From: a virus
Length of the DNA: 64,000 nucleotides
Strand: one strand, 5' to 3'
IMG/VR virus record: IMGVR_UViG_3300045988_124250
In this document: positions 26,995-57,737 of the stretch, piece by piece
Layout: every line of letters begins with the position of its first letter
How positions within the stretch are numbered: the first letter of the stretch is position 1
Notes under the pieces: generated by a model
The model's input: the letters and a program-made list of their open reading frames with translations, nothing else
Database searches by the model: none
What the model was told of the DNA's origin: nothing
Translations under genes and position numbers: made by a program

Positions 26995-29900
26995 ATGAGC
27001 AATAAACGATTCATCCCTGTTCGTGGTACTGAAGCTAAATTAGATTTAATGGGTTTTAATGATGGATATGTTTATTTTGCAGTTGATACTGGTAAAATTT
27101 TCATAGACTATACTCAAGCTGATGGTACAATGGTATCACGAAAGCTTTTAGGAAGCGGTAGTGGTGGTGGCTCAGGAAGTAATTCTGGTATTTATTATGC
27201 CAATTATACTCCGACCGATGCTGAAAAACTAGAAGATGAAATCAATATTCCAATCGGAGCTATTGAAGGCGGAGAGTATCCCGAAGAAGATGATTTAATT
27301 ATCAACTTAGGTGATAATTGTTTTTATCGTGTAATAAAAGTTCAGCGAGCATTTCAAAATGTACTATGTCGTCGTTTAACTGTTGCTGGTGGAGGCGGTG
27401 GAGATGACCCTGGTTCATTAGCTTCTGATATCGAATTAGCTGTAGATTCATTACCTACTGTTAATTTAATTAATGGACGTTCTCAAGAGGTAACATTTGT
27501 TGCTACATCAGCTAAAAATAAGAAGGGTAATTCTTATGACTCTATTCTTACAATCAATTGGAAATTAGAGTATACTGATGATGGTACTAACTATAATCAG
27601 TATAATTCAGGAACATTCCAAGTACCTGATGGTGAGAAATATGCTTTTGAATTTGGTAAATTAGCTAAGGATGATGCTTCTTCAAGATTAGTGTTAGTAG
27701 CTAGCCAAACCAATCATCCAAGCACAGTTACTCGTTTGATAACATTTAAAACTTCTAAGTTAGAACTACAAGAATCAAGCAGCTTTTCTAATTTAAGTTA
27801 TTTTGAACCTAATAAATTAGTACTGCAATGTAATGTTAATGGTGCGATGGATAAAATTGTTGAATATTATTTTGACAATGAAGATGAGCCATTTTTAAGC
27901 GTACCTTTAGCTGCTAATTCGGCTACATTATAGAGTGTTAATGTTTCACAATATATATCTGTAGTTAATGGTTATCATAAAGTTTGGATTCGTTTATTCC
28001 AATCTATTAATGGTAAAAAAGGAATTGAAGTTGAGCCTTTAATTTTTGAAGTAGCTGTTTATGATGGTTTAGACCCTCAAGCTCCTCCAATTATTTGGCT
28101 GGGAGATTATAAAGACGAATATTATAGTTATGACACTATTCAAATTCCTTTCCGTGTTTTTGACCCATAGGCTGAAAACCCAATAGTGCATTTTAAACGT
28201 AATAATATTGAACTTTCTTATTCTCCTCAAACAATTACTGATTCTAAAAATTATGCAATTTTTGAAATTGCTAATCCTGAATTAGATGTAATTAATCACT
28301 ACACTATTACTTGTGGCGATGGAGCACGTGAGACTACCCGTAAGATTGAAATTCGTGTAGTAAAAGACCCAACAAGAACAGATTTTGGTATTTAGAAACA
28401 AGGTTTCTTAACTTATTTGTTAAATACAGTTGGTAGTGGTCGTTCTAATTCTGAGACATTAGCTAAACGTACTACTTTAGTAAATTCTTCTACTGCTCTA
28501 GGTGCTGAGCCTTGTGCGGCGACGTTTACTAATTTTAATTGGTATAATAATGGTTGGACTACTGACGAAGACAATAAAACTTGTTTACGTATTAGTAATG
28601 GTGCTAAATTATCTATCCCTATTGGTCGTACTGTATTTTCAAACCCCAATGGTTCTCAAGCGACTGAACAATCTCATAGTATTGAATTGATGTTTAAAGT
28701 TCGTAATGTTCAGGATTATTCAAATTTAATTCGTACTATTACTCGTTATAAAAATGATGAAAATTTATATAAAGCATTTTATAATGAAGAGACGGGTGAA
28801 TTTAATTATAAAAATTATACTAACTATGATGCATTTTTAGCTTGGTATTTAAAAACTTATGAAGTTGATTTTGTTGATAAAAATGGCGTTAAACGCAGAA
28901 TGGAATATGATGATTTAGAATTTAGTCATATTGCTAAACAAATTAATTTAAATAATGTTATAGGCAGTTATTATTCTGGTAATACTAAAGCTGTTACTGG
29001 CTTATGTCTAGGCCCACAAGATGCATTTTTCTCTAATGGTACTAATACAGTAAACGTGTCTTACGTTGAAAATAAAATTATTACTTTATCTGTTGTTTGT
29101 AAATATAGTAAAGAAAAAATCCAAAACTTAATTTACATTTATTTAAATGGTGTATTGACTAGTGTTGTTAGAAATACTCAAGAAAATGGATTTACTGTAG
29201 AAAATGATAAAATTGAATTTAACAGTGATTATTGCGATATTGATTTGTATAAAGTTCGTGTATACCGCACTGATTTAAATGTTAATGATATTGTCATGAA
29301 TTATGCTGCTGATTTTGAGAATGTAAATATTTATGATCAAAATAAATTAGCAGAAGAAAATACTGCTATTGATGAATTCCAGTTTAGTTATACTAATATG
29401 ATAAAGTATAATAATGAACATCCTGATGCTCCATTAATGCCTTATATTATTTTTGATACTACTAAATTAGAAGATAGTGAAAATAAACTTCCTTATTCTA
29501 AAAAAGTTAAATTAAATGTTGGAGTTGAATTTGTTAATACTCCACTTGAAATGTATTATAATAAAGGTAAATTGGAAGAGTTAGCCAAAGCTGATAAATT
29601 ATTTGGTGATGGTGCTACGGCGGCTGAAAAACAAAAGGCTGTTGAAACTTATTATAAATATCATTGTCCTTCATTTATTAGCGATAGCGCATCAATGAGT
29701 GTTCAAGGAACTTCATCTGAATTTTATCCTCGTCGAAATTATAAAGTTAAAACTAAAAATAATGACGCGGTTGACGGCGAAAAACGAGTTAATATTTTCT
29801 TAAATCGTGGTCCATTTAGAGAGTAGTATAATGCTGATATGTTAGGCTCTACTTAGAAGCCTTATATTTTAAGCACAACATTAGGGCCTTTAGTTGATTC

Positions 29901-32900
29901 TGCTACTGGTCAATTAAAAATTAAATATTATGAAGATGAAAAAGGTGAAAAGGAAGTTGTCTTTAGTGAAACTAATCCTTATAAACCGAATACTTTCTAT
30001 ATTAAAAATACTAATTATGTAAAACGAGGAGAAGAAAAAACTCGTCAAAAATATTGGTATTTTAATAACTATACTTGTGGAACCCATAAATTTACCATGA
30101 AGATTGACTATATGGAATCTTCTGGAACTTATAATATGGGATTTGCGAACATGGTTAAAAATGCTTATTCTAAACATCCATTAGATGATTATAATAATGC
30201 AAAAGCGTTTTAGGTAGAAGACCCTGAATAGACCAATTATATTTTAGCAACGAAATATAAAGATGGTAAGGTTTATTGGTATAAAAACCATAAAGGTAAT
30301 TGGAAATCTACTGATGGCGTAGAAGATAATTTAAATGTTACTAATGCTGAAGATTTTGCTAAAGGACCTGTTGCTCTATATCCTGAGCAATATCCAACAG
30401 CAGAAAAAAATAAGGTATTAAGTGATACTGCTAGCGAATATTATAATAAATTCTATGAAATAGAATTTGGATATAAAGATTTCAAAGTTGATAATACTGA
30501 TGATTATCGCACTTCTGTGCGTGGTTTCCGCGTACTTGCATTTCATAAAAAGAAACCTTCAGATGGTAGTTCAGAGCCTATTTATCAATTTATTGGTATA
30601 TACAATATGCTTTTAGATAAAGGTTCTGATGAAGTATATGGATTCGCACTTGACAGCACTACTGGTAAAGATCCAAAAGCTAAATTTATAGGCGATGGTA
30701 CTAAGAGTATGCCTAAAGTAGCAGAATGTTGGGAGTTTGAAAACAATAGCCGCACCTTCTGCTCATATCGTGACCCACAAGACCGCAAAGATTTGAAATT
30801 TGATGTATTTAATACTGATGGTTCTCGTGTATTAAATGCAGTTCAATCTGCCCCTGTGGTAGCCGACTCATTTGAATATCGTTATCATGATGATGCTGAT
30901 ATACTTGATTATATTATGGCTCCTGATGGAGAATGTAAGAAAGACCCAACATTAACATTCTCTAAGGATGATATTACATTAAATCAAGAAAATCGCGCTC
31001 AGCATTTATTGAAAGATTATTCTAATTGGGAACGCGCTGTAGCTTGGGTTTGGAGTACTTGTACTGAAAAGGTAGTGTCTAATGGTACTTATAAAGTTTG
31101 TGATGTTGGTGAAGAGTTATTTGATAATAGTAAACACTATATCATGACAACTAATCCATTAACTTCTGAATAGATCTATACTTTGGCTAAAGAGTATGTA
31201 GAAGGTACTACTTACTATAAAAAGAATCCTGATTATAACCCAAATCAAGAAAATAGTAGTGAATATATTGTTGCTTATATTGGAACAGTGTTATTTAGTT
31301 CTAATAAAACTAAATTATATACTGGTGAAATTGATAAAAATAATAATATTACCTATGTTCCTTGCTATAGTACTGATACATTCAATCCTGATAAACAATA
31401 TTATACTTTGGAATCTTATAGCGATGAAGAGCTAGATACAAAGGCTGATAGATTAGTTGTTTTATGTAAAGATGAAGCATTTGATGCAAGTAAAACATAT
31501 TATAATTATGATGGAAATGCTAAATGTGGTAAAGCAGTAACTAAGGCTAATGTGACTGCTGAAACTTATGAACCAAATAAATATTATATTGGAACCATTA
31601 TTACTTATGGTGATCGCTCTTATAAATATGACACGCAAGAGTATCGTGGTGATAAATTTACTTATGAATTAAGTGACCACTTCGATAAAGAATATATGGC
31701 TACATATTTTGTTATGACAGAAATTTTTGAGTGTTATGATTCTCGTGGTAAAAACTGTATGATGGCTTCTTGGGGTCCTCAAGAGAAAGGCGGAGACTAT
31801 ATTTGGTATCCAATTTTCTATGATATTGATACTCAATTAGGTATTAATAATACTGGTATTCCATCATTTGAATATAACGTTGACGCCACTGAAGATGGTA
31901 ACTATTCTACTTCTGACAGTGTTTTATGGAATAACTTCTATAAATATTTTAAAACTGGTTTAATTATTCCTAAATATAGACATTTACGTGGTATTACTAC
32001 TAGTGTATTTGGTTCTAATTTAAAACAACCTCCTTTAAAAACTGTAGATCGTATTGAGTCATATTATTTGACTGATTATAATACAACAAATAACTTGGCT
32101 GATTTAGGTACTCGCCCATTAGTAGCAGTCAATTTAGATGAATATTATAAATATATCACTATTACAAATGATGCCTCTTATTTAGATGGTACTACTGGAC
32201 ATATTAGTAGTGATACAACTGGTGTATATACTGTTGATACTAATGGTACTTATTTCTACGCCTTACAAGGAAATAGAAGTCTATCTCGTCAACAGTTCTT
32301 ATCTAACCGCTTAGAGTATATTGACTCTTGGTTAAATGAAGGTAATTATCAACGTGGTGGTGCAAACCGCATTCGTGGTCGTGTAGCTGCCAATAATAAA
32401 AACAAAACTTCAGATAAATGGATTGAAACCGCCAGTGATCCTTATTTCAAGGATGAGAGCACTTTAACCAAAAACCATTTATTTGATGCTGAATATTGGA
32501 TGACATTAACTCCGGCTCACTCTTCTTATGTTACTCTTGGTGATGATAATGAAGCCTATCCTTCTCGTAAATACGATGGTGTTCATGCGCTAAGATTTAA
32601 TATTGATTCTATTGAAAATGGTGTCCGCAAGAGTGAAAATTATCCTGAGCAATTACTATATGTTTATGGTATTAACCAAATGAAAGATCTTGGTGATATG
32701 AGTAATCTATATTGGCAAGAATTTGAAATTTCTGGTGACGCTACTAAATTGACTAGTTTGAAATTAGGATATGATGGTCTGGATGAAAATGGAGAGCGTT
32801 GGTATAATGATAATGTTAACCAATTCAGTATTCCTGCCAGCTCTTCTGATAGTAAAGGTATGCCTTTATTAAAAGAAGTAAATATGAGTAATATTCAATT

Positions 32901-35145
32901 TAATGCTGCTTCTCCTGTATTAGATTTAACTAGTTGTGAAAAATTAGAGAATTTCCGTGCTACTGGATCTAATTTAATTAACGTTCAGTTTGCTAAGGGC
33001 GTAGCATTAAATACTGTATATTTACCTACTAGTATTACAAATCTTGAATTGGTTGAAGCCAACCTATTAAAGAATATAATTACTGAAGATGAATATAAAA
33101 ATCCTACTCGTGATGATGAAGGTAATTTACAAGCTAATCCTGGTTTATATCTCCAAGGTTTCTTTGATAAGATTTCAACTGGAGATAAAGGAGATACAAT
33201 GATTGCTTCTCTAAATATCGCTGGTGGTGGTTTAGGTTATGATAGTTATAAGCTATTAAAGCAATATTATACTATTCGTAGCCAATAGACTAACACTTCT
33301 TAGATTTCTATGACTAATGTTAATTGGTGTCCATATATTTAGATGACAGTCGACGATGAGCGCAATCCATCTACTACTTATTATGTGGATAATGGACATT
33401 ACGGACTAGAACCTTATACTTATACTAATTTTGATGCATGGACTGTTAAAGTTGAAAATGGTGAAATTTATCGTAAAGATGAAACAATTCCAGAAGATAA
33501 AATAAATCAAATCACTGATTTAGTTATGTTCAAAGAATTTATTAGTGATAAGAAATGGATTAAAAACTCTAGTAAAAATATTCCTGATATTTCTGGCATT
33601 ATTTATATTAATAATACAGAAACTATTAAAGAATCTGAATTACGTAACACCATTCAAGTGGCTTATCCTAATTTAACAATTTTCTGTGCGAATGTTGAAT
33701 AGGGATATACTGCTAGATTTGTAATTATGGATGAAGATGAGGGTAACGATGGTCGCTATCAATTAATTGGTTCTATGACCTTAAAAGATGGTGAAACTTG
33801 GTTTGCAGACCCTATTGATGCATTCGGCGATATTAGTGAGAAGAAACCAAATCATGATTTCTATGGTTGGGCGTTAACTAATTCTAAAAATGCAGATATT
33901 CTTATTAATATTGATAAAAGTATTAATAAATGGAACGAGCAAACTATTGATTCTAATATTCATACTTATATATTCTATGCTATTTGTCCTATTCATGAAT
34001 GGAGCGTTAAATATTATTATAAAGATAATACATTAATTGAAGAAAAGAAAATTCCTCATGGTAATTACGCTGTAATGTCTACTATTATTCCTTGGAAAGA
34101 TGATAGTGATTTACCATTAGACCAAACTTATAAATTCTTAGGATATAGTCGTTCTATAACTGCTTCCTCTGCTATGAAATTAGAAGAGTATATGATTACT
34201 GAGGATACTACATTTTATGCAGTATTTGATAATAATCCTATTAATGTATATGAAGATATCCATCCTGAGTATTTTGCAGTTTCTGAATAGACATCTGGCC
34301 TCACTCCAGCAGATACTTATTATACCGACTGGGCGGGAGAAACAAAATGGAATATCCCAGATGGTGTAACTTTAGCCTTGACTAAAAAAGTTAAAGGTAA
34401 AATTACAGTACCCGCCTTCTTTGATGTAAATGGAGTATCTAAAAAAGTTATTGCTATTGATGCAACATTCGGTTCCCCTGGAGATATTTATGATACAGAT
34501 ATTGATGCTCCTCGTAATCCAGGATTCGAGGGAAAATCTGCTACATTAAATTCTATTACTTACGTTCCAGTTTGCTATGGTGAGAATCTAACTCATGTAT
34601 TCTTTGAAAAATATAAAGAAAATGATATTGAAAAATGCAATATTAGATTTTTCTGTGGTGCTACTTTTTCTCATTCAATGAATTTAGTATGGGTAGAATT
34701 CCCTGAAGGTTTGAGATTAATTGGAGACTATGCATTTAAAATGCCTGGTTGTCAATCTCGTGTAGTATATCCAAAATTCTCTAATGTAAGTATTGGTGGT
34801 ACAATTGCAGTCATCAATCAAAGTGCATTCCAAAATACATTTTCTGGAGATAATGATACATTAACCATTGGTTCTAATGTTTAGAAGATTGATAATGGCG
34901 GTTTCACCTTCTCTAGTTATAGTGATTTAAATAGTGATAGAACATTAGGTATTAAAAAGATTATTATTGGTACACCAGAAGAAAAATCTAAATTGCGTAT
35001 CGTATCTGGTGACCCAGCCTTTATTAACTATGCCTCTTGGTCGGCAATTACTATAGAATCAGTCGATTGGTATACTACTTTGAAACAAGATGCTGCTAAT
35101 TCACTATTCTCAGGATTTAATAAAATTAATTATATTAATTCATGA
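26995..35145 (+). CDS. Giant multi-domain receptor-binding/tail protein (about 2716 codons, about 16 TAGs) with a C-terminal BspA-like leucine-rich-repeat domain
   Basis: RBS GAAAGGAGAT. ORF pieces 26995, 28186, 28417, 30517, 31183, 33343, 33727 and 34378 are all in one frame (positions congruent to 1 mod 3). Read codon by codon, no TAA or TGA occurs for 8.1 kb, until TGA 35143-35145. There are Gly/Ser linkers near 27160 and an LRR-like stretch near 32880-33060. A BspA-type LRR (IGDYAFKMPGC...INQSAFQN) lies at about 34380-35140. Confidence 0.55.
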
Positions 35146-44604: not shown

Positions 44605-45018
44605 TTAACCCTCAGTCTTTTTAGGTTGAGCTTTATTTATATTGACCTCAGATTCAATTTTAGTAGTAATATATCCACTTAAATCACCGAGTGCTTCATT
44701 AAGATACTCTTTGGCATCTTCAGTTAAAATGCCCATTACAGCATCATAAGTTTTCTTGAATGCTTCCAATTGAGCATTTTTATCGAATGCATTTTGACCT
44801 TTCAAACTTTCAACATATGTTTGATTTGTTGCTAATACACAATCAGTAATTGTTTTATTGAGCATGTCCATATATTTTTGAAGAGTTTCATCATTAGTTT
44901 TAGCCTTTAACTCATTAGTTTTAGATTGAATAAAACGAACCAAGAATAGAGAAACAGCTGTTAATACTGGGACAATAAGAATATTGAAAATTTGTTGTAG
45001 CATTTCTAGCCAATCCAT
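44605..45018 (-). CDS. Membrane-anchored protein (137 aa, TAG-free) with an N-terminal TM helix and a charged/coiled C-terminus; possibly holin-like or superinfection-related
   Basis: Start MDWLEMLQQIF with RBS GGAGGAAAAC. Preceded by a near-consensus TTGACT-17-TATAAT promoter. Confidence 0.5.
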   Translation of the reverse strand: MDWLEMLQQIFNILIVPVLTAVSLFLVRFIQSKTNELKAKTNDETLQKYMDMLNKTITDCVLATNQTYVESLKGQNAFDKNAQLEAFKKTYDAVMGILTEDAKEYLNEALGDLSGYITTKIESEVNINKAQPKKTEG

Positions 45019-45043
45019 AAGTTTTCCTCCTCTTCCATTTTTC

Positions 45044-45076
45044 TGTATTATAAAATAAATTTTTGGAAAAGTCAAT
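45044..45076 (-). promoter_or_regulatory. Sigma-A-type promoter for the minus-strand gene 44605-45018 (TTGACT, 17-bp spacer, TATAAT)
   Basis: Reverse complement reads TTGACTtttccaaaaatttatttTATAAT. The -35 is at 45070-45075 and the -10 at 45047-45052. Confidence 0.55.
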
Positions 45077-45150
45077 AAATAACAATTCCTATTTAATATA
45101 AAAAATATTTTAGATAGATTTACTGAAAATAACCAGGCAAAAATCGTTAG

Positions 45151-45243
45151 TTGGTCCATCTCAATTTACATTATATAATGGAGGAGCCCAGTAAAATTTT
45201 TTACACCACTGTAAAATTTTTTACTTCGCTGTAAAAAATTTGG
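45151..45243 (+). promoter_or_regulatory. Plus-strand promoter (TTGGTC, 16-bp spacer, TATAAT) followed by two identical palindromic operators GTAAAA-TT-TTTTAC 20 bp apart, plus a third degenerate copy
   Basis: -35 at 45151-45156 and -10 at 45173-45178. Operator copies at 45191-45204 and 45211-45224, with a third copy gtaaaaaattt at 45231. Confidence 0.5.
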
Positions 45244-45862: not shown

Positions 45863-46543
45863 ATGGCTTTAACTGAAAACGGATTATCTCCTGCTGATAT
45901 CATGGCAATGACTCAGGGCGACCGCAACGATAATGGTTTTGGCGGCACTTGGACTTGGGTATTCTTCTTATTCTTCCTCCTGGCTTGGGGCGGTGGTGGA
46001 CTATTTGGTGGCGGTTCTGCTACTCAGGGCGCTTTAACTCGCGCTGAATTAGCCGATGGTCTAGGCCGTCAAGATATGTTCCGCAACCAAGATATGATTC
46101 TCACCGAAGTGAGTGCATTTGAGCGTGATGCAGCTAATCGCTGGGGTAATATTCAATATGAAGTAATGAAAGGGTTAAACGATAATCGTTTCGCCCAGCA
46201 AGAATGTTGTTGCACAACTAATCGCAATATTGACGCTGTGAGATATGAGAATGCTAAAAATACTTGTGATATTGTAAATACCAACAACTTAAATACTCGT
46301 GATATTTTAACTAATCAAAATGCTGGTGTTCAGCGCATTCTTGATTATTTAACTGCCGATAAAATTGAGAGTCTACGTACTGAATTACAGTCTGCCAACT
46401 TAACAATTCAGAATATGAATCAGACTACTGATTTACTAAACACTTTACGTCCTTATCCTACTCCTGCATATATTACTTGCAGTCCTTACACCGCAAATAG
46501 TATGTATAATGCATTTAGTGGATGCAGCGCCTGCGGTAATTAA
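45863..46543 (+). CDS. Membrane/Cys-rich hypothetical protein (226 aa, TAG-free, higher GC)
   Basis: RBS GAAAGGAATG. Has a Gly-rich TM segment (TWTWVFFLFFLLAWGGGG), a CCC motif and a C-terminal CSAC. Ends at TAA. Confidence 0.6.
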   Translation: MALTENGLSPADIMAMTQGDRNDNGFGGTWTWVFFLFFLLAWGGGGLFGGGSATQGALTRAELADGLGRQDMFRNQDMILTEVSAFERDAANRWGNIQYEVMKGLNDNRFAQQECCCTTNRNIDAVRYENAKNTCDIVNTNNLNTRDILTNQNAGVQRILDYLTADKIESLRTELQSANLTIQNMNQTTDLLNTLRPYPTPAYITCSPYTANSMYNAFSGCSACGN

Positions 46544-46600
46544 TCTATTGAGGGAGGAAATATCCTCCCTCTATTCTAACTAAGAAAGGAGTTCATACGA

Positions 46601-47023
46601 ATGAGTACTTGTTCAAATTGCTCTAATCCAATTTTAAAGACTACCTCTACAACTAGCTAGACTCTTGCTACGGGTAATCCTATTCCACTCCAGAATAATA
46701 TATTCCAAAGTGGTTGTGGTATTTCTCATATTGCAGGTAGTACTGCGATTAGTTTAACTCGAACCGGCACCTATTTAGTTGCGGTGACTGCAACTGGTAA
46801 TGCCGGCTCTGGCAACACATTTTCAGTCCAGGCTTATAACAATGGAACTGCCATTCCTGCTGCTATAGCCAGTTTAGTGGACCAAGGCACAGTTCATTTT
46901 ACTACATTAGTAAAAGTATTACCATCTTGCCGTTCTATAAATAACAATGCCAATTTGACATTTGTTAACACTGGTGCGATAACCTATTCAACTGTTGAAG
47001 TCGATATTGTAAAGGTTGGGTGA
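46601..47023 (+). CDS. Small Gly/Thr/Ala-rich protein (140 codons, 1 TAG); C-terminal domain reminiscent of BclA/C1q-like exosporium proteins
   Basis: RBS AAAGGAG. Sequence ...GTYLVAVTATGNAGSGNTFSVQAYNNGTAIP... Ends at TGA 47021-47023. Confidence 0.5.
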
Positions 47024-47028
47024 GTTGA

Positions 47029-47550
47029 ATGGATTGTCAAGAATATATGATTTCTATAATTAAACGTCAAACAGAGGGAGTAGTTTATCATGAAAATATG
47101 ACTGATTACTATCGTTTTTTATGTTTAGACAGTTTAAAAGAAATCCATTGTCATCAATCTTAGGAAGAATTAGAAACTCTTCAATGTACTAAAGATTGTT
47201 ATGCGAAAATATATTTTTCAATTCCACAGTTTGAAATGGAAAACACAACATTAATCCCAGCAGAATGGTATAGTAAAACATCTATGGATGTCACCAAAGG
47301 AGCTATTAAATCATTAAGTAAAGAGAGTCTCTACCACTGGCTCGATTGGGAGAAGGAGACATTGAGCATCTATAAGGAAGCTGCAATGCACTTCAAAGAA
47401 AATATGGCGTTTCATCAATTAAAAATAGCTAAGAAATTAATTAAATGTATTTCCGCAGAAATTTGTGAAATTGAAGGATTGATTACAGAAGGGTTAGCCT
47501 ACGATTTTAGCCCTGAATTTTTAAAATACTATTATAAAATAGACGAATAA
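47029..47550 (+). CDS. Hypothetical protein (173 codons, 1 TAG)
   Basis: ATG at 47029. ORF 47236-47550 is the C-terminal part of the same frame. Ends at TAA. A terminator follows. Confidence 0.45.
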
Positions 47551-50335: not shown

Positions 50336-50830
50336 TCACATTTTTTCCCATAAGTCAAATGGAGCGTAATAAACTTTTTGATTGTGTGAGCCACGCATAG
50401 GTAAGGTAATATCTCGTTGTTCAATCTTAAATGGACCGTCAATAATACAATCAATATTATCAACAATATTTTTTAGATGTGGCTCTCTGCACATAGCCAA
50501 TTCATCCATTGTATATCCAGTCCATAAAAAAATTTTTGTTTTAGGAAGAGCTTCTTTAATATGTTCAATAATTAAATCTACAAGGAATAGATTTTCTGGC
50601 GCAAGGGGCTCTCCTCCCATAATACAAAAATCACGATGTATACCATTAGCAGTAAGAGCATTTACTATATCATCTAATGTATTAGTAGTAAATTCTTTTC
50701 CGCCATTAAAATCCCAAGTTTCTGGATTCTAACAACCCTCGCAATGTCTGGCGCATCCTTGAGTGAAAAATGAGACACACACTCCAGGAGCTCCAGCAAT
50801 ATCATTTTTAATTATACCAGCGTATCTCAT
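50336..50830 (-). CDS. nrdG: Anaerobic ribonucleotide reductase activating protein (164 codons, 1 in-frame TAG directly after the radical-SAM Cys motif)
   Basis: Motif GCARHCEGC-TAG-NPETW, with the TAG codon at 50729-50731. ORF 50336-50620 is the C-terminal part. The start overlaps the nrdD stop as ATGA. Confidence 0.75.
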
Positions 50831-53097
50831 TCCATCACTCCTACATGTTTGACTCGATGTTCAACTTCATCTTGCTTTCCTAAATTAAATGCAGTTTTAT
50901 AATTACCAGTTAAATAACCAGTTACACGACGAAGTTGCTGGATTTCTTTACTACCGCATTCTGGACATTTATCATTAAATTCGCCAGTATATCCGCACTT
51001 TAGACAAGTATCATTAGGAACATTTACAGCAAAATAAGGAATATCTTTATCCATAGCATAATTTACAATTTGCTCAAGAGCAGTTAAGTTATTAGATACA
51101 GTAGAATCTAACTCAACATAAGTAATACAACCGGCATTACTATATCCAGTTAATTGACTCTCAATATCAATTTTATCAAATGGGCTCATTTCTTTCCATA
51201 CAGGAACATGAATTGAATTAGTAAAAAATTCTTTATCACTTACATTAGGAATTTCGCCGTATTTAGCTTTAAATTTCTTCATTGCGGTATAACAGAGATT
51301 TTCCGCGGGAGTATAATAAACACCAAAGTTTAATTTATACTGTTCTTTAAATTCCGCACAACGCTGTTTAAATAAGGATTCAATTTTTTTTGCTAATTCC
51401 ATTCCTTCTGGAGTTGTATGGTCAGTACCAATAAGAATTTGTAGAGTTTCTGCCAGTCCTAACTAACCTAAAGCTAATGTTCCATGTTTAAGGGCACTTC
51501 TAATTCCTTCTTCTGGAATATAACCAGCCATTAGGCTATTTTCATACATAAACTTAGCAGAAGCAGGGCTTTGAGAACAAATCCAGTCAAAACGTTCAAT
51601 TAATTGATCCTTAGCCTCAGCAATTTTTTCATCAAGCAAATTCATAAATACTCTAATGCATTCATTAATTTTTACTTCATTATCTTCATCCAATACCTTA
51701 AAACTAAGAAGATTATTTACTCTAGTTTTTGCAATCATCGCCAAGGTAGGCATAATGATGGTTACTGGGCAAATATTTCCACGGCCATCTTTCAACTAAC
51801 CGAAACCGTTAATATCGTATCCATTGGCAGTTCGGCATCCCATTGTACTAAAATAGGTACGTGGGTCATTGATATCATATCCAGCATTCCCGGACCAATC
51901 AACATTCGCGTAGTTGGGGTATAATCTTTTGGCGGTGGATTGTAATGCGAGTTTAAACAAATCATAATTTGGGTCACCTGGTTCACGATTGACACCTTTC
52001 ATACATTGGAAAATCCCGCAAGGGAAAATAGAAGTTTTATGTAGCTTACCCAATCCCTCAAGAGATACTTCTAATAGAGCTTTTGTAATCATTCTTCCTT
52101 CTGGGAGAGTACAAGTTCCATAGTTAATAGAAGTAAATGGAAGTTGATTACCACTACGACTTTGAAGAGTATTTAAATTATGATACATACCTTCAACTGC
52201 TTGATGAATTTCTTTTTCTGTCTATTTTAGAGCATAATTATAAGCATTTTGATGACCAAATTGACTTTGTAATTCTTTATTAGAAATTTCAATAGGTTCA
52301 CAATCCTTCATAATTTGTAGAGCCATACCTTCACTGTAATCATCAACATCAGTTAAATATGCTTTAAAATGTTTTCTAAAACTCTTTTTAACATAAGGAA
52401 CCATAGTCCAATCAAGATGAGTAGCACTTACTCCACCAAACTATTGAAGAGATTGTAATTGGAAAATAACAGCAACCAATTGGAATGCTGTATTTACTGA
52501 ACCTGCTGGACGCACATCTGTTTGACGAGTATTAAATCCATTAGCAAGCAAATCATCAAATGGAATTGATAAACAGTTATGGTCGCCCACAGCATAATGG
52601 TCAAGGTCATGAGTATAAATCATATTCTCTTCATGATTACGCTTTGTCCGAGGGGAAACAATATAATCAAGAGCATATTGCTTCATTAAGAGACTATTGG
52701 CCTCGCCCATGCGTCCACCAAATGATGCTTCATCAACATTAGCATTTTGATTCTAAATATTAGCACCACGAATTTTTTCACCAATTGCCGTAATAAATTC
52801 AGTTGAATGAGTACGAGCGACTTCTTTTTTATATCTGTAACGAATATAAGCACGAGCAATATCAGGACGCTCTGATGTCATTAATACTTCTTCAATCCAA
52901 TTTTGAATATCTTCAACATTAACACTTCCATCAGGGAAATGGCTAGCTCTATATTCTACTTCATCAGCGATGCTATTAATACTATCTGATTCAAAAATAT
53001 TTTCATCGACAGCGATAAATGCTTTAGTAATAGCATCAATAATCTTTTGTTTGTTAAATGGCATTACATCGCCATTACGTTTAATTATATAAAACAT
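50827..53097 (-). CDS. nrdD: Anaerobic ribonucleoside-triphosphate reductase (about 756 codons, 5 in-frame TAGs)
   Basis: N-terminal ATP-cone and a C-terminal glycyl-radical motif RRVTGYLTG. ORF pieces 52753, 52441, 52222, 51796, 51463 and 50827 share one frame. Every junction stop is TAG: cta at 52753, 52441, 52222, 51796 and 51463. Confidence 0.8.
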
Positions 53098-53108
53098 TTA
53101 TAACCTCC

Positions 53109-53155
53109 GCACTAAATATAGTGGAAAAAATTAGGATATCCACTATATTTAGTGT
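53109..53155 (-). promoter_or_regulatory. Two tandem NrdR-box-like 16-bp palindromes 31 bp apart (centre to centre) in the nrdDG leader
   Basis: gCACTAaATATAGTGg at 53109-53124 and cCACTATATtTAGTGt at 53140-53155. Each matches the NrdR consensus acaCwAtATaTwGtgt at 13-14 of 16 positions. Together they form a hairpin directly upstream of the nrdD RBS. Confidence 0.6.
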
Positions 53156-53169
53156 TTGTTGTAAATAGA

Positions 53170-53766
53170 TTAATAAGTTGTGTCCAGATGCTCCGGCCAC
53201 CGAGACAGGAACAATGCTAAATCTTTATATATATATTCTAATTCCGCAGGAGTATTATTTACATATAACCAATTACATAAATCATCAGCATCTTCAAAAT
53301 CGAGTTTATCTGTTTTATATCGACGAATAATTTCATCAATATCCGGGTTAGCCTCTCGATTTAACTATCTAATTAATCGAATCTTATCATCTGCGTGGAT
53401 ATAAACGATAATTAAATTTACTCGTTTATCATGTAATAGAATCTCTGCGCCTTCTGGATTAAATACTCCTACATTGATAGCGCCCTCTTTGACTGATTCA
53501 ATTCCTGTGCCATAGCACCATTCATTAAAAACAGTAGCTTCAAACATTTGATTCTATAAAATCATTTCAGCAAATTTTTCTGCTGAAATAAAATGGTAGT
53601 TAATACCATCCACTTCTTTTTCTCTTGGAGGTCTTGAAGTATAACTTATAATTTCATGTAGAGGTAATTTACCATTATAATAATGCTTTGTATCATCAAT
53701 TAGTTTACGGAGAATGGTATCCTTACCACTCCCCGCTTCACCAATTAATGCTAATATATTATACAT
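53170..53766 (-). CDS. Guanylate-kinase-like nucleoside monophosphate kinase (about 198 codons, 2 TAGs)
   Basis: P-loop GEAGSGKDT and a GMP-kinase-like FISAEKFAEMI...YGT block. Junction stops at 53554 and 53365 are both TAG. Ends at TAA 53170-53172. Confidence 0.65.
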
Positions 53767-56700
53767 TAATTAGCTCCTCCATTATATCTCTCATCTTTTA
53801 ATTCAATATCGCCATTATCTAAAATTTTATCAATTTTATATAATTGATGACCGCCAGAGCTGGCATATTTCTTCGCTATAAAATTATCACCTTGACGAAT
53901 ACCTTGAACAGCAATCATATTACCACGATTAAACCAGCTTTTTTCCATTACTTTTTTAGTACCATCAGCTTGTTTTTCTGAAATTTGTTTATCAAATAAT
54001 GAGAAATATTCTTTTCTAAATTTAACTTCAACAACTCCAGAAGTAGTGAGTAATGTAACTGTTGACTTAGTTTTATTTTTAGCAATACAAGTCCCACAAA
54101 TCTTGTGTAATTTATACATAGTAATCGTTTTATTACCCTTAGAAAAAACTTTATCAACAATTGGTTCTTCTGGTAGATGGAAGAAATCGACAAATCCATA
54201 TTTACTATTATTTACATGGGCTAACTCATGCTCATGATAATAGAAACACAAGACTTCCATCTCCCACGCAGAAATAGATTTAGATGCATATTTATCCCAA
54301 TCATCTTTAAATATTTTATTATTTAATTTATTTAAAATAACATCTTTATTTTCTGTAATCCAAGCCCGGAATGTATCCATATATTTTTGATATACTTTAT
54401 CCCAAGCTTTAGAGTCTAAGAGACAACAACTACCAATTAAATCATCACAACCAATTTCAGTTAGGAAATTAATTGCTCGTTCATCAACTTTATACACATT
54501 ACCATCTTTACAAACGGCTTTTAAATATCTATTAAATTCATAAACTCGTCTTGCCATCACATATTCATCTTTATCTTCTGGCAATAAATTATAACGAATT
54601 AGAGTTGCTAAATTTTGTAATGTTAAACGAGATTTTTTATCGCAAGTTTCCCAAATATACCAAATCATTAAATCTTTGCGGTCCATCATTTCATCAAATG
54701 CGCCACTTTTAATTAATGAAATCATTGCTTGTTTACTAGGTTTAATACGATAATAAAAATCTTTTACTGATATATATGGACGATTTGCAATAATATTATT
54801 AATCAAATCATCCCCAACATTCAATAATCCTTTTAAACCAAATAGAATTTGATTATTTTCAACATCAGGCGCAAACCCAAATTTAGCTTTATTAATATCA
54901 GCTAAACTGACTTTAATACCAGCAGACTGAATATCTCCAATCGCTTTTGCAATTTTACCATAATCAGTACTAGCCACTTTTTTATTTTTTGGTTTATTCT
55001 CCATTACATCTTCTGGAGAAACACCACAATATTCTTCGCCAGAATAATCATAATCTTCATCGCTCATTTCTTCTGGCTCATTTTCTAATGCTCCACTATT
55101 TACAATCAAACAAGCACAATTCCAATAAATAGGATTGAAATTAATTGCCAAATAAATCATTTGAATTGCAACAAATGAGTAAGGAAGAGAATGATTTAAA
55201 CTAAATGCATATCCCAATTGAGGAGCGATTGCATTTTCCCAAAAATATTCAGCATTATGTTCATTAGTAAACTTGCTAAATACTTGTTCTTTTAGTTGAG
55301 GAATTTTTGCCATTTGTTTTTTGGCAACGACTTTACGTGCGCTATTTGCTTCGCCTAATGTAAATCCAGCGACATCCATAAGAATTTCCATCATTTGCTC
55401 TTGAAGCGGACAGCATCCATAATATCTATCACAATGCTTGTGCATTTTTTCAATCATTTCTTCTGGTAAATGATTATCTTTCATCTCTTTATCAAAAACT
55501 TCAATGCCTGCTTTTTGAATTCGATAATATCTATCTTGCTGACTTTCTTTGCCCTTTTCACTCATTAGACGCATCATAGCATTTGCCGCTGTCATTTCCA
55601 TAGGGTCTTTTGGCTTCAATTTTTTAGCAATAGCTAAACCTACACCAGTAGAAAACTGGAATACATCAAGAATGTCTCCGGCTGCCAGATGTTCCCAAAT
55701 GCGCTTGTCAGAAGTATCTATTACTTCTGGATGAAGATATTTATTATAAAAATCACGTAGACCAATATCAGGAATTTGATTATCCTCTTTTAATAAATTA
55801 TAACATTGAATAATCTTATCGCAAGCTTCTGTTACCAAGAAGTCATATTTAGTATCTCCAGCGGCTTCAGCTTTATGCAAATCCCAACAAGTAATTAAAT
55901 CACCACTGGGGGTTTTCATAAATGATGCAGTTTCAAATGGGTCTTCTCCATATAGAATAACGCCAGAAGCATGAGAAGAACGTTTATTAACGATACCCTC
56001 AATGTATACAATAATATCCAATAGACCAGGATACTGATTTACTTTTTGAATAAATGTGGTAACTGGTTTTCTGTCTTTATCAGGATTACCATTTACTACA
56101 TCTTTCATCGGCCATAGAAATCCACGTTCTTGCGGGATTAATGAAGACATAAATTGCGCTTCATCTACATCAATGCCATTTGGATAATCATCACTTCTAT
56201 AACCACGACAAGCAGTTAAAATCGCTTGCTTTGTTCCTTCAGTTCCAAACGTTGCAACTTGAATTAAACCTAATGTTCCGCGCTCTTTACGAATAGCACT
56301 AAAAATTGCAGGGCGTTTACTTGGTGCTAGGTCAATATCAATATCAGGTAATTCAGCGCGCTCTAAGTTCAAGAAACGCCAATATGGTAATCCCCAACGA
56401 ATTGGATCTAGCTGAGTAATTCCCAGTAAATAATTAGATAAGAAACCAGTTGCTGAGCCTCGACCGGGGCCAACAATACTTCCGCACTCCCAGAACAAAT
56501 CAATATAATGTTTAAATGTATTAAAATAAGCAAACAAACAATCTTCAAGTTTTTCGCCAATATTTTTAATTACATTAGCTTCAGTTTCAAGCCGAGCAAT
56601 ATATGTTTCATTTTCATATAATTGTTTTTCTTGTAATGCTTTAATACATTCATTTATCCAATATCGTTCTTGAATATCATCACTATTAATCAGTGAACAA

Positions 56701-57737
56701 ATAACAGGATATTTTTCATACCAATCTTTTGGAATAAATCCCTTTTTATAGTCTAATACTTCTACTCTTGGAATTTGTTGTTTGCGCTCAAGAGAATAGA
56801 ATTTTATTTTCTTTTGAATTTCTAATGTATTATCAAAAATCCAATTCATAATTTCTTGAGGAGTTTTATTTTTATCCCAAGTATCCATATATGGTAGCAT
56901 TAATTCTTCTACTTCATCGCTATTCATTACATAAGCAAATTCATAGAATGAATCAACTTCACGCTCGCCATCTTTAGAATTTAAATAGGCTTTATGAATT
57001 GGTCTATCTTTCTTTGTTAAATAATGAGCGTCAGTTCCAACTACCATTTTTAAATCATATGCTTTTGCTACTTGATAAATTTTTTGATTTACTACAAGTT
57101 GGTCTTTCATGGTAGACGGAGCGCACTCTAAATAAAAATCATCTTTACCAAAAACATTTATACAAAATTCAATAAATTTAACAATATTATTATAATAAAT
57201 GCTTTTAGTTTGTGTATCGCCTACAACTTCGGCTTCATACATTGGATACAAATTAGAACCTAATTCACCACCAATACAAGCTGTTGTTGCGATTACATGC
57301 CCTTTATATTGTACCATTACATTTTTCAATTCAGATTTTAATGTTGGCACTCGTTCCATTTTTCTATCAATATAAGAATTAATCCAAGCAATTGAACTTA
57401 ATTCTTTTAATGCTTTATATCCAATTTCATCTTTTGCCAATAAAATAAAATGATAATACTTTTGACCGCAATCTCTTGTATCAGTCAAATAAATTTCATT
57501 GCCTAATGCGATAGTAAAATCAGGATGCTCTTTTAAAAAATCTTTTGCAAATTGATTAACTTCCATATGAGCAGATAAACATTCGTGATCAGTAATTGCT
57601 ATACCACTTAATCCTAATTTTTCTGCTGTTTTAATCAACTCTTCTGGTCTATTAATAGAATCTAATAAACGCAGATTTGAATAGTGAGTATGGTTGTGTA
57701 CGCCAAAATATGGTCGCATAATCCACCTCTTTCTCAT
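53766..57737 (-). CDS. dnaE: DNA polymerase III alpha subunit, DnaE-type with N-terminal PHP domain (1323 aa, no TAG)
   Basis: Uninterrupted 1323-aa ORF. PHP motif GVHNHTHYS...ITDHE, a polymerase core and a C-terminal OB fold. RBS AGAGGTGGA. Confidence 0.85.
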   Translation of the reverse strand: MRKRWIMRPYFGVHNHTHYSNLRLLDSINRPEELIKTAEKLGLSGIAITDHECLSAHMEVNQFAKDFLKEHPDFTIALGNEIYLTDTRDCGQKYYHFILLAKDEIGYKALKELSSIAWINSYIDRKMERVPTLKSELKNVMVQYKGHVIATTACIGGELGSNLYPMYEAEVVGDTQTKSIYYNNIVKFIEFCINVFGKDDFYLECAPSTMKDQLVVNQKIYQVAKAYDLKMVVGTDAHYLTKKDRPIHKAYLNSKDGEREVDSFYEFAYVMNSDEVEELMLPYMDTWDKNKTPQEIMNWIFDNTLEIQKKIKFYSLERKQQIPRVEVLDYKKGFIPKDWYEKYPVICSLINSDDIQERYWINECIKALQEKQLYENETYIARLETEANVIKNIGEKLEDCLFAYFNTFKHYIDLFWECGSIVGPGRGSATGFLSNYLLGITQLDPIRWGLPYWRFLNLERAELPDIDIDLAPSKRPAIFSAIRKERGTLGLIQVATFGTEGTKQAILTACRGYRSDDYPNGIDVDEAQFMSSLIPQERGFLWPMKDVVNGNPDKDRKPVTTFIQKVNQYPGLLDIIVYIEGIVNKRSSHASGVILYGEDPFETASFMKTPSGDLITCWDLHKAEAAGDTKYDFLVTEACDKIIQCYNLLKEDNQIPDIGLRDFYNKYLHPEVIDTSDKRIWEHLAAGDILDVFQFSTGVGLAIAKKLKPKDPMEMTAANAMMRLMSEKGKESQQDRYYRIQKAGIEVFDKEMKDNHLPEEMIEKMHKHCDRYYGCCPLQEQMMEILMDVAGFTLGEANSARKVVAKKQMAKIPQLKEQVFSKFTNEHNAEYFWENAIAPQLGYAFSLNHSLPYSFVAIQMIYLAINFNPIYWNCACLIVNSGALENEPEEMSDEDYDYSGEEYCGVSPEDVMENKPKNKKVASTDYGKIAKAIGDIQSAGIKVSLADINKAKFGFAPDVENNQILFGLKGLLNVGDDLINNIIANRPYISVKDFYYRIKPSKQAMISLIKSGAFDEMMDRKDLMIWYIWETCDKKSRLTLQNLATLIRYNLLPEDKDEYVMARRVYEFNRYLKAVCKDGNVYKVDERAINFLTEIGCDDLIGSCCLLDSKAWDKVYQKYMDTFRAWITENKDVILNKLNNKIFKDDWDKYASKSISAWEMEVLCFYYHEHELAHVNNSKYGFVDFFHLPEEPIVDKVFSKGNKTITMYKLHKICGTCIAKNKTKSTVTLLTTSGVVEVKFRKEYFSLFDKQISEKQADGTKKVMEKSWFNRGNMIAVQGIRQGDNFIAKKYASSGGHQLYKIDKILDNGDIELKDERYNGGAN

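What the first reader, a model, noticed from the sequence alone, without database searches (positions are those of the whole stretch)
53098..53172. Tandem NrdR boxes directly upstream of the phage nrdD-nrdG operon
Two 16-bp near-palindromes, gCACTAaATATAGTGg at 53109-53124 and cCACTATATtTAGTGt at 53140-53155, match the bacterial NrdR operator consensus acaCwAtATaTwGtgt. They sit 31 bp centre to centre, the canonical spacing of paired NrdR boxes, and lie between the upstream kinase gene stop and the nrdD RBS. The phage nrd operon therefore appears wired into the host's dATP/ATP-sensing NrdR repressor. The two boxes can also form an RNA hairpin sequestering the region just 5' of the RBS.
Basis: partly seen in the sequence, partly recalled or inferred. 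Interest (0 to 1): 0.7.

Follow-up and report, generated by a model that had tools for sequence, protein, structure and literature searches.

The report
NrdR operator before phage nrdDG
A gut phage carries, just in front of its own anaerobic ribonucleotide reductase genes, a textbook binding site for the bacterial repressor NrdR, so the phage probably lets the host's dATP/ATP sensor decide when its DNA-precursor enzyme is made.

Summary
Two 16-bp near-palindromes lie at 53140-53155 and 53109-53124. They are 31 bp apart centre to centre and fill most of the 72-bp gap between a guanylate-kinase-like gene and nrdD-nrdG, all on the minus strand.

I scored them with a matrix built from 17 experimentally validated NrdR boxes. 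They are the two best sites in the 64-kb window. As a pair they score 32.1 bits, against a maximum of 21.6 in 200 random sequences.

Every sequence-level feature that defines an NrdR operator is met: C4/G13, a 15-bp spacer, and a position at an RNR operon. The layout closely resembles the Listeria monocytogenes nrdDG operator.

Related phages with 74-76% NrdD identity keep both boxes and the 15-bp spacing even though the spacer sequence differs. Other relatives keep one box or none. Two cultured Firmicute phages also have box pairs at nrdD.

The predicted RNA hairpin is real in silico. It follows from operator symmetry and is lost in relatives.

Two things are unproven: the host, inferred to be Bacillota, and actual NrdR binding. 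I rate this a new member of a known kind, of moderate interest.

In passing: NrdR-type box pairs are common in phage contigs, mostly at terminase/portal genes.

The parts
53140..53155 (-). Distal NrdR box (box 1). It reads ACACTAAATATAGTGG on the coding (minus) strand.
   Evidence: PWM score 16.6 bits, the best site in the window. C4 and G13 are present. The core CTAAATATAG is identical to the cores of the validated L. monocytogenes nrdAB distal box 1 and the S. pneumoniae nrdHEF box 2.
53125..53139 (-). 15-bp spacer between the boxes (ATATCCTAATTTTTT on the minus strand).
   Evidence: The length lies in the optimal 14-17 bp range for NrdR. A 15-bp length is conserved in L006, L070 and L105 although their spacer sequences differ.
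53109..53124 (-). Proximal NrdR box (box 2). It reads CCACTATATTTAGTGC on the minus strand.
   Evidence: PWM score 15.4 bits, the second-best site in the window. C4 and G13 are present. It ends 11 bp before the nrdD ATG.
53115..53142 (-). Candidate sigma-70-type promoter inside the operator: -35 TGGATA at 53142-53137, a 16-nt spacer, and -10 TATATT at 53120-53115.
   Evidence: The consensus scan gives 9 of 12 matches. This is weak evidence on its own, because the scan found 5 such sites in the region against 3.8 expected in shuffles. The promoter is inferred, not shown.
53104..53108 (-). Shine-Dalgarno GGAGG of nrdD.
   Evidence: Read directly from the sequence. Strong SD motifs precede 24 of the 31 main ORFs in the window.
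50827..53097 (-). nrdD, the class III (anaerobic) ribonucleotide reductase. It is 756 aa, carries an N-terminal ATP-cone, and has 5 in-frame TAG codons.
   Evidence: Pfam matches: NRDD 1.8e-145, ATP-cone 2.6e-21, Gly_radical. The TAG positions align mostly with Gln in homologues.
50336..50830 (-). nrdG, the radical-SAM activase. It overlaps the end of nrdD by 4 bp.
   Evidence: Pfam matches: Fer4_12 1.2e-35 and Radical_SAM.
53170..53766 (-). Upstream guanylate-kinase-like gene, 198 aa with 2 in-frame TAG codons. Its TAA stop at 53170-53172 bounds the intergenic region.
   Evidence: Pfam match: Guanylate_kin 2.7e-20.
53110..53154 (-). Potential RNA or DNA hairpin formed by the two boxes. The arms are 53139-53154 and 53110-53125, with a 13-nt loop.
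   Evidence: The MFE of the 91-nt leader is -25 kcal/mol, with z = -6.6 against 200 shuffles. There is no T-run after it and no Rfam family matches. I interpret it as a by-product of operator symmetry.

Best explanation
The 47-bp element at 53109-53155 is a canonical two-box NrdR operator controlling the phage's own nrdD-nrdG genes.

Proposed mechanism. When host NrdR carries both dATP and ATP, which happens when dNTPs are plentiful relative to demand, it forms a tetramer. The tetramer's two Zn-ribbon pairs grip the two boxes three helical turns apart and kink the DNA sharply. The operator fills the 72-bp gap and ends 11 bp before the ATG. A bound tetramer would therefore cover any promoter in the gap. 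It would also stand in the path of read-through transcription from the upstream polymerase and kinase genes. When phage replication drains dATP, ATP-only NrdR lets go and nrdDG is transcribed.

What is shown: the sequence match, the spacing, the position, the statistical excess, and the conservation in relatives.

What is inferred: that the host is a Bacillota bacterium with NrdR, that NrdR binds this site, where the promoter lies, and the direction of regulation. The direction is taken from published NrdR biochemistry.
For: 1. Both boxes score 16.6 and 15.4 bits on a PWM built from 17 experimentally validated boxes, whose own scores range from 9.9 to 20.0. They are the two best sites in 64 kb. 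The pair scores 32.1 bits, against a maximum of 21.6 in 200 random sequences.
2. Both boxes keep C4 and G13. Mutating these cuts NrdR binding by at least 50- to 350-fold.
3. [quoted passage not shown]
4. The site matches the published search expression for NrdR box pairs, in the 'short spacer' class.
5. The architecture resembles L. monocytogenes nrdDG, where the pair overlaps the RNAP site and the ATG lies 13 bp after box 2. Here the distance is 11 bp.
6. The phage family shares the order pol, kinase, nrdD, nrdG. Within it, L006, L070 and L105 (74-76% NrdD identity) keep two boxes, the C4/G13 pairs, the cores and exactly 15 bp of spacing, while the spacer sequence diverged. In L105 it is unrelated and GC-rich.
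7. Cultured Firmicute phages show the same feature. Enterocloster phage CB457P2 has a 25.0-bit pair with a 15-bp spacer 57 bp upstream of nrdD, with TATAAT in the spacer. Enterococcus phage PEf771 has a 26.4-bit pair with a 26-bp spacer.
8. Negative controls: 50 kb of SPbeta reaches a maximum pair score of 14.3, and six Gram-negative phage nrdD loci reach at most 11.2.
9. No NrdR homologue is encoded in the window, which points to a host protein.
Against: - The host is unknown, so presence of nrdR in it is inferred only.
- No binding or expression data exist.
- The predicted promoter inside the operator is weak (9 of 12 matches) and not statistically distinctive.
- The operator is not universally kept. 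L069, the L007 group and L055 retain one strong box, and L082 and most of the more distant nrdD phages have none. Control by NrdR is therefore dispensable in this gene family.
- Only 64 kb of a roughly 197-kb genome was examined for a phage-encoded NrdR. The pattern-based scan of viral contigs could miss a divergent one.
- The PWM rests on 17 boxes read from a machine-read (OCR) supplementary table.
Confidence: 0.72

Rival explanations
1. The element works mainly as an RNA (or cruciform DNA) hairpin in the nrdD leader. A 16-bp stem ending 1 nt before the Shine-Dalgarno sequence would modulate translation, mRNA stability or processing. On this reading the resemblance to NrdR boxes is secondary.
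For: The 91-nt leader folds at -25 kcal/mol, with z = -6.6 and 0 of 200 shuffles as stable. Outer weak helices also touch the SD and the AUG. The two boxes are complementary at 15 of 16 positions. In L006 the changes at box positions 2 and 15 preserve box-to-box complementarity while breaking palindromy within each box. In L105 the spacer adds a GTGCGG/CCGCAC complement.
Against: Any two copies of one palindromic consensus are complementary to each other. Validated bacterial operators show the same or higher inverted symmetry: S. pneumoniae nrdDG 16/16 and S. thermophilus nrdDG 14/16. So do 11 of 73 phage-borne pairs. A two-fold symmetric NrdR tetramer predicts exactly this symmetry. Relatives L069, L007-L021 and L055 keep a high-scoring single box and no partner arm, so no hairpin can form. 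There is no T-run and no Rfam family. If the promoter lies inside the operator, the hairpin is not even transcribed from it.
Confidence: 0.08
2. The boxes are a relic. The nrdDG cassette was captured from a bacterium together with its operator. The site persists by descent but no longer regulates anything in the phage.
For: The operator decays in several relatives of the same syntenic family: one box in L069, the L007 group and L055, and none in L082. Phage nrdD genes are clearly mobile, with HNH or intron insertions and 61-68% identity to bacterial NrdD of several phyla.
Against: Lineages at 74-76% NrdD identity have largely or completely different spacer and flank sequences. They still keep both 10-bp cores nearly intact, all four C4/G13 positions, and exactly 15 bp of spacing. 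That is the pattern expected under selection for binding geometry, not neutral decay. The scores (16.6 and 15.4 bits) lie in the upper half of the range for functional bacterial boxes. Independent cultured Firmicute phages also carry pairs at nrdD.
Confidence: 0.12
3. The site is bound by a phage-encoded protein with NrdR-like specificity rather than by host NrdR. One candidate would be a Zn-ribbon protein lacking the ATP-cone, encoded elsewhere in the ~197-kb genome.
For: Phage contigs do encode short proteins of 74-135 aa that consist of the NrdR Zn-ribbon (CxxC...RRRR.C..C..RFTT[YF]E) without room for an ATP-cone. Phage genes annotated as NrdR appear in the literature. Only about one third of this phage's genome is in the window.
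Against: No NrdR-like sequence was found in the window or in the fetched flanks of relatives. None of the 31 viral contigs with NrdR-like ribbons belongs to this phage's clade. The close relative's 197,697-bp contig has only this one strict box pair (locus L112), which would be a poor return for a dedicated phage regulator.
Confidence: 0.08

Closest known systems
Listeria monocytogenes nrdDG NrdR operator (Shahid et al. 2025, PMC12051234)
   Same: Two 16-bp boxes with C4/G13 sit upstream of nrdDG in a low-GC Firmicute setting, with a short spacer (16 bp there, 15 bp here). The pair overlaps the RNAP-binding region. The start codon lies 13 bp after box 2 there and 11 bp here.
   Different: This site is on a phage genome, inside a long co-directional replication module and with only 72 bp of intergenic DNA. 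Binding has been measured for Listeria but not here.
Streptococcus pneumoniae and S. thermophilus nrdDG NrdR operators
   Same: The two boxes are near-perfect reverse complements of each other (16/16 and 14/16, against 15/16 here). They use the same GTGG...CCAC inner flanks as S. thermophilus nrdDG.
   Different: S. pneumoniae uses the long 25-bp spacer. The window uses the short 15-bp class.
Box pair upstream of nrdD in the cultured Enterocloster phage CB457P2 (OP172754.1). It is not among the annotated features of that record.
   Same: It is phage-borne, lies upstream of nrdD, has a 15-bp spacer and scores 25.0 bits as a pair. It sits in an intergenic region whose spacer contains a promoter -10 element, TATAAT.
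   Different: That NrdD is only about 25% identical to this one. That phage does not recode TAG. Its pair lies 57 bp from the ATG rather than 11 bp.
Phage co-option of a host global repressor, as in Bacillus phage GIL01 and host LexA (PMC6182141)
   Same: The concept is shared: a phage places operators for a host repressor that senses cell state in front of its own genes (abstract).
   Different: The repressor, the signal (SOS response versus dATP/ATP ratio) and the target genes all differ. This is an analogy only, not homology.

Membership tests
NrdR operator (paired NrdR boxes) | 16-bp palindromic boxes matching acaCwAtATaTwGtgt, with the critical C at position 4 and G at position 13 | tested here: met
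   Both boxes have C4 and G13. They score 16.6 and 15.4 bits on a PWM of 17 validated boxes, whose own range is 9.9-20.0.
NrdR operator (paired NrdR boxes) | Two boxes separated by 14-17 bp (or 24-27 bp), giving an integer number of helical turns centre to centre | tested here: met
   The spacer is 15 bp and the centres are 31 bp apart. The requirement is documented.
NrdR operator (paired NrdR boxes) | Located upstream of a ribonucleotide reductase operon | tested here: met
   The operator spans -11 to -58 relative to the nrdD ATG, and nrdG follows nrdD.
NrdR operator (paired NrdR boxes) | Overlaps the promoter or transcription start site | tested here: inconclusive
   A weak TGGATA-16-TATATT match lies inside the operator, but such matches are not enriched over shuffles. 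No TSS data exist.
NrdR operator (paired NrdR boxes) | Occurrence beyond chance in its genomic background | tested here: met
   The pair scores 32.1 bits. Random 64-kb sequences gave a mean of 12.5 and a maximum of 21.6, so 0 of 200 reached it. SPbeta, used as a 50-kb control, reached 14.3.
NrdR operator (paired NrdR boxes) | Conservation of boxes and spacing in orthologous regions | tested here: met
   L006, L070 and L105 keep two boxes and a 15-bp spacer with diverged spacer sequence. L019 keeps a weak box plus a strong box with a 16-bp spacer. The operator is reduced or lost in L069, the L007 group, L055 and L082.
NrdR operator (paired NrdR boxes) | A cognate NrdR protein (Zn-ribbon plus ATP-cone) is present in the cell | not testable with these tools
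   The host is unidentified. A Bacillota host is inferred. [quoted passage not shown] None is encoded in the window.
NrdR operator (paired NrdR boxes) | dATP+ATP-dependent binding of NrdR and repression of the downstream genes | not testable with these tools
   This needs EMSA or MST and reporter or RNA-seq experiments.
Regulatory RNA hairpin or intrinsic terminator in a 5' leader | A stable stem-loop significantly better than shuffled sequence | tested here: met
   -25 kcal/mol, z = -6.6.
Regulatory RNA hairpin or intrinsic terminator in a 5' leader | A U-tract after the stem (terminator), or membership of a curated RNA family | tested here: not met
   The stem is followed by CGGAGG with no T-run, and no terminator was called there. 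The only Rfam hit is a chance mir-1264 match at E = 0.16, far below the gathering score.
Regulatory RNA hairpin or intrinsic terminator in a 5' leader | Structure conserved in relatives beyond what the DNA operator symmetry predicts | tested here: not met
   Single-box relatives cannot form the hairpin. The level of inverted symmetry equals that of validated bacterial operators.

The most novel reading that the evidence does not exclude
NrdR may be a sensor that phages exploit generally, so that this operator is one instance of a wider strategy rather than an isolated case. Three observations point that way.

1. Strict NrdR-type box pairs occur in well over 100 viral contigs, where fewer than one is expected by chance.
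2. Their spacers show NrdR's own helical-phase signature: 68 of 116 distinct pairs have 14-17 bp and 18 have 24-27 bp.
3. Most sit not at RNR genes but at the start of head and packaging modules. These include TerL-portal junctions in at least three unrelated terminase/portal families, and HNH-TerS junctions.

In addition, some phage contigs encode NrdR Zn-ribbons without the ATP-cone.

Phages may thus read the dATP/ATP state through NrdR to time both dNTP supply (as in this window) and late or packaging genes. Replicating phage DNA might also titrate NrdR away from host RNR promoters.
Probability: 0.3. Interest if true: 0.8.

Novelty: new member of a known kind. Interest (0 to 1): 0.55.

Why it matters
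Phage-encoded ribonucleotide reductases are usually regarded as a way for a phage to escape host control of dNTP supply. A fully canonical NrdR operator in front of a phage nrdDG operon suggests the opposite for this lineage. The phage keeps its RNR under the host's dATP/ATP-sensing repressor, so the enzyme is made only when replication drains the dNTP pool.

The same gene carries two further layers of control. NrdD has its own ATP-cone, which gives allosteric control. It also contains five in-frame recoded TAG codons.

I found no paper in the searchable library that describes NrdR boxes on phage genomes. The idea is cheap to test, because purified NrdR proteins and binding assays already exist.

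The operator also constrains the host. The host should be a bacterium with NrdR that recognises short-spacer boxes.

Tried and rejected
- Rfam scan of the region: only a chance miRNA hit.
- tblastn of three NrdR proteins against the window and all fetched loci: nothing.
- Exact-sequence look-ups of the NrdD N-terminal fragment and of the polymerase, intended to find the source sample or host: not on record.
- Bacterial nrdD loci from the genome collection, intended to recover a host-type operator. The pattern-based search returned mostly Prevotella loci at about 61% identity with no boxes, plus contigs binned into genome bins labelled Bacilli or Clostridia (L082 and L105 examined). By synteny and in-frame TAG codons these are related phages, so no host operator was obtained.
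- Thomasclavelia phage TR-TP1, the closest cultured relative by nrdD: its nrdD overlaps the upstream gene and has no boxes.
- SPbeta bnrdIEF: no boxes.
- The published regular expression for box pairs matches the site, but it is too permissive in 30% GC DNA to be a test on its own. It gave 395 single matches and 55 pairs in the window.
- BLAST of two portal- or TerS-associated box-pair families against cultured phages: no match.
- Rodionov and Gelfand 2005 could not be read, so I cannot exclude that it mentions phage or prophage boxes.
- Other regulators considered from memory of their consensus sites (LexA/Cheo box, Rex, Fur/PerR, CcpA, FNR): none resembles the boxes. These were not tested with matrices.

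Full report
**Observation.** Read on the coding (minus) strand, the gap between the kinase and nrdD is:

TAA-ttaatctatttacaacaa-ACACTAAATATAGTGG-atatcctaatttttt-CCACTATATTTAGTGC-GGAGGttataa-ATG.

The distal box is 53155-53140 and the proximal box is 53124-53109. The spacer is 15 bp and the centres are 31 bp apart. The proximal box touches the GGAGG Shine-Dalgarno sequence and ends 11 bp before the ATG at 53097. The 14-mer CACTAWATWTAGTG has only these two perfect matches in 64 kb.

**Gene context.** The window is 30% GC phage DNA in which TAG is a sense codon. Treating TAG as sense doubles the summed length of long ORFs and yields ORFs of 2,300-2,700 aa containing 14-49 in-frame TAGs. In NrdD the five TAG positions align mostly with Gln in homologues, 16 of 35 aligned residues.

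The genes around the finding are all on the minus strand. They form a replication and nucleotide-metabolism module in this order:
- primase
- RecJ-like exonuclease
- Dda-like helicase
- DnaE-type polymerase (53766-57737)
- guanylate-kinase-like protein (53170-53766)
- NrdD (50827-53097, with ATP-cone, NRDD and glycyl-radical domains)
- NrdG (50336-50830)
- dUTPase
- RuvC-like resolvase

The polymerase is 40% identical over its full length to SPbeta YorL, and the module order resembles that of SPbeta.

**Is it an NrdR operator?** I took 17 NrdR boxes from oligonucleotides whose binding to NrdR was measured (Shahid et al. 2025, supplementary table 3) and built a symmetrised PWM from them.
- The two boxes are the best and second-best sites in the window, at 16.6 and 15.4 bits. 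The third-best site scores 11.4 and the training boxes range from 9.9 to 20.0.
- Singly, sites this good turn up in 2.5% and 13% of random 64-kb sequences.
- As a pair at 30-33 bp offset they score 32.1 bits. Two hundred random sequences gave a mean of 12.5 and a maximum of 21.6.
- Both boxes carry C4 and G13, the base pairs whose mutation lowers NrdR affinity by 50- to more than 350-fold.
- The 15-bp spacer is in the optimal 14-17 bp window, and two boxes are needed for tight binding.
- The site matches the published search expression in its 'short spacer' class. That expression is permissive in AT-rich DNA, so I give it little weight.
- The closest described architecture is L. monocytogenes nrdDG. 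There the pair overlaps the RNAP site and the ATG lies 13 bp after box 2.

**Relatives.** I fetched 80 viral loci encoding NrdD relatives. Several of them share the order pol, kinase, nrdD, nrdG. The kinase-nrdD gap varies as follows:
- Relatives at 95-99% NrdD identity have identical boxes, which is uninformative.
- L006 and L070 (74%) and L105 (76%, a contig binned into a genome bin labelled Bacilli that has the same gene order and in-frame TAG codons) keep two boxes scoring 12-15 bits. They keep all C4/G13 positions, nearly identical 10-bp cores, and exactly 15 bp of spacing. The spacer sequence itself changes, and in L105 it is unrelated and GC-rich.
- L019 has a weak box plus a strong box with a 16-bp spacer.
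- L069, the 15-locus L007 group and L055 keep one strong box of 12-15 bits.
- L082 and most of the more distant phage nrdD loci have none.

The operator is therefore ancestral to a sub-family, is maintained with its geometry in several lineages, and is dispensable in others.

**Cultured phages and controls.** Enterocloster phage CB457P2 has AATCTATATCTAGTGG-15 bp-TGCCTATATCTTGTGT 57 bp upstream of nrdD. The pair scores 25.0 bits and a perfect TATAAT lies in the spacer. Enterococcus phage PEf771 has a 26.4-bit pair with the long 26-bp spacer at its nrdD start. Six Gram-negative phage nrdD loci, Thomasclavelia phage TR-TP1, and 50 kb of SPbeta including bnrdIEF show nothing comparable, with pair scores of 14.3 or less.

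**The hairpin.** The boxes are complementary to each other at 15 of 16 positions. The leader folds into a 16-bp stem at -25 kcal/mol with z = -6.6. Four points argue against a separate role for it:
- Two copies of one palindromic consensus must pair with each other.
- A two-fold symmetric tetramer predicts inverted symmetry between the boxes.
- Validated bacterial operators are as symmetric or more so: S. pneumoniae nrdDG 16/16 and S. thermophilus nrdDG 14/16.
- Single-box relatives cannot form the stem. There is no U-tract and no Rfam family.

The changes in L006 that look compensatory, and the extra GTGCGG/CCGCAC complement in L105, leave a small residual case for selection on structure. I keep the hairpin as a minor, non-exclusive rival.

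**Host.** No tRNA gene is present in the window and no exact protein look-up succeeded. The evidence for a Bacillota host is indirect:
- AGGAG- or GGAGG-type Shine-Dalgarno motifs precede 24 of the 31 main ORFs.
- The nearest cultured relatives are phages of Thomasclavelia, Enterocloster, Enterococcus and Bacillus.
- Related contigs sit in genome bins labelled Bacilli and Clostridia.

[quoted passage not shown] The window encodes no NrdR.

**Mechanism.** This part is inferred from published NrdR biochemistry. NrdR loaded with dATP and ATP forms a tetramer that binds both boxes and bends the DNA sharply. ATP-only NrdR does not bind. In this window a bound tetramer would occupy positions -11 to -58. 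It would cover the only candidate promoter in the gap, TGGATA-16-TATATT, which is a weak match. It would also obstruct read-through transcription from the polymerase and kinase genes. Expression of nrdDG would then follow the fall in dATP as phage replication begins.

- When I allowed spacers of 3-33 bp, 68 of 116 distinct pairs had 14-17 bp (peak at 16) and 18 had 24-27 bp (peak at 26). This is NrdR's known helical-phase preference.
- Only this phage's clade had the pair next to an RNR gene.
- The recurrent neighbours were packaging genes. These were TerL-pair-portal in three unrelated terminase/portal families, further portal families, HNH-pair-TerS (18 loci), and TerL. An NAD-dependent ligase, XRE-type regulators and an antirepressor also occurred.
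- Separately, 31 viral contigs gave NrdR-like matches confined to the N-terminal Zn-ribbon. The 10 ORFs I extracted are 74-135 aa, with too little sequence after the ribbon to hold an ATP-cone.

**Novelty and limits.** The operator is a canonical member of a well-described class. What is new is that it sits on a phage genome in front of the phage's own RNR. Six full-text searches found no description of NrdR boxes in phages.

The limits are these:
- The host is unknown.
- There are no binding, TSS or expression data.
- The PWM comes from 17 boxes read by OCR.
- The random model was first-order Markov.
- Only a third of the phage genome was in view.

Noticed in passing
whole window, e.g. 12-7028(+), 10053-17327(+), 26995-35145(+), 50827-53097(-): TAG is used as a sense codon, most likely Gln. 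Giant ORFs of 2,300-2,700 aa carry 14-49 in-frame TAGs. The use is uneven in the replication module. The polymerase, the primase fragment, dUTPase and RuvC have none, while nrdD has 5, RecJ 5, the helicase 3, the kinase 2 and nrdG 1. nrdDG would therefore be gated by both the operator and TAG suppression. No tRNA gene lies in the window.
   Followed up: partly
viral loci L109-L226 and L267 onward, e.g. L118:2853-2899, L121:2938-2984, L195:3318-3362, L215:6274-6320: Strict NrdR-type box pairs occur in more than 118 viral contigs, where fewer than one is expected by chance. Their spacers cluster at 14-17 and 24-27 bp. They mostly sit at the start of head and packaging modules: between TerL and portal in three unrelated terminase/portal families, between HNH and TerS, and before TerL. 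They are rarely at RNR genes. I found no literature on this.
   Followed up: partly
viral loci L227-L257, match at about 3001 in each: 31 phage contigs gave NrdR-like matches confined to the N-terminal Zn-ribbon. The 10 ORFs extracted are 74-135 aa and consist of the NrdR Zn-ribbon DNA-binding motif (CxxC...RRRR.C..C..RFTT[YF]E), with too little sequence after it to hold an ATP-cone. They could be effector-blind repressors or competitors at NrdR boxes.
   Followed up: partly
L259:671-717 (Enterocloster phage CB457P2, OP172754.1) and L258:726-783 (Enterococcus phage PEf771, MN241318.1): Two cultured Firmicute phages carry NrdR box pairs at their nrdD genes that are not among the records' annotated features. 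One has a 15-bp spacer containing TATAAT. The other has the long 26-bp spacer and overlaps the annotated GTG start.
   Followed up: yes
upstream of nrdD in L029, L030, L032-L034, L042, L051, L053, L063, L066, L077, L082 (about -45 to -8 from the start): A different conserved leader motif, roughly CCTTAAAATATTTAAATAnTTAGGAGG, often preceded by GGTTAAATCC, recurs before nrdD in phage lineages that lack NrdR boxes. It may be a phage-specific promoter or leader element.
   Followed up: no
L035-L054, L076 and others, the 60-150 bp before nrdD: In many more distant relatives nrdD is immediately preceded by, and overlaps, a small ORF. That ORF ends in a Zn-ribbon-like motif of the form C-P-H...C-P-Y-C-G-K-K-F.
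   Followed up: no
L001 (Thomasclavelia phage TR-TP1), L056, L067, L069, L072, L073, L077, L080, L105, L108: nrdD is interrupted in several relatives, where the match spans about 3 kb instead of 2.2 kb. In TR-TP1 an HNH endonuclease gene splits nrdD into two annotated CDS. These look like mobile intron or intein insertions.
   Followed up: no
L082 and L104-L106 (genome-contig hits): L082 and L105, contigs binned into genome bins labelled Clostridia and Bacilli, share the phage's pol-kinase-nrdD-nrdG order and have in-frame TAG codons in nrdD. They are probably related recoded phages rather than bacterial chromosome. The short, high-identity contigs L104 (labelled Gemmiger) and L106 (labelled Bacilli) may be the same. 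The Prevotella nrdD loci (about 61% identity) have no NrdR boxes.
   Followed up: partly
window 44605-45159(-), with a + strand block at 45863-47550 inside the minus-strand module: A holin-like gene (phrog_13712) lies at the downstream end of the minus-strand module. The window switches from the + strand block of giant ORFs to the minus-strand module at about 44.2 kb.
   Followed up: no
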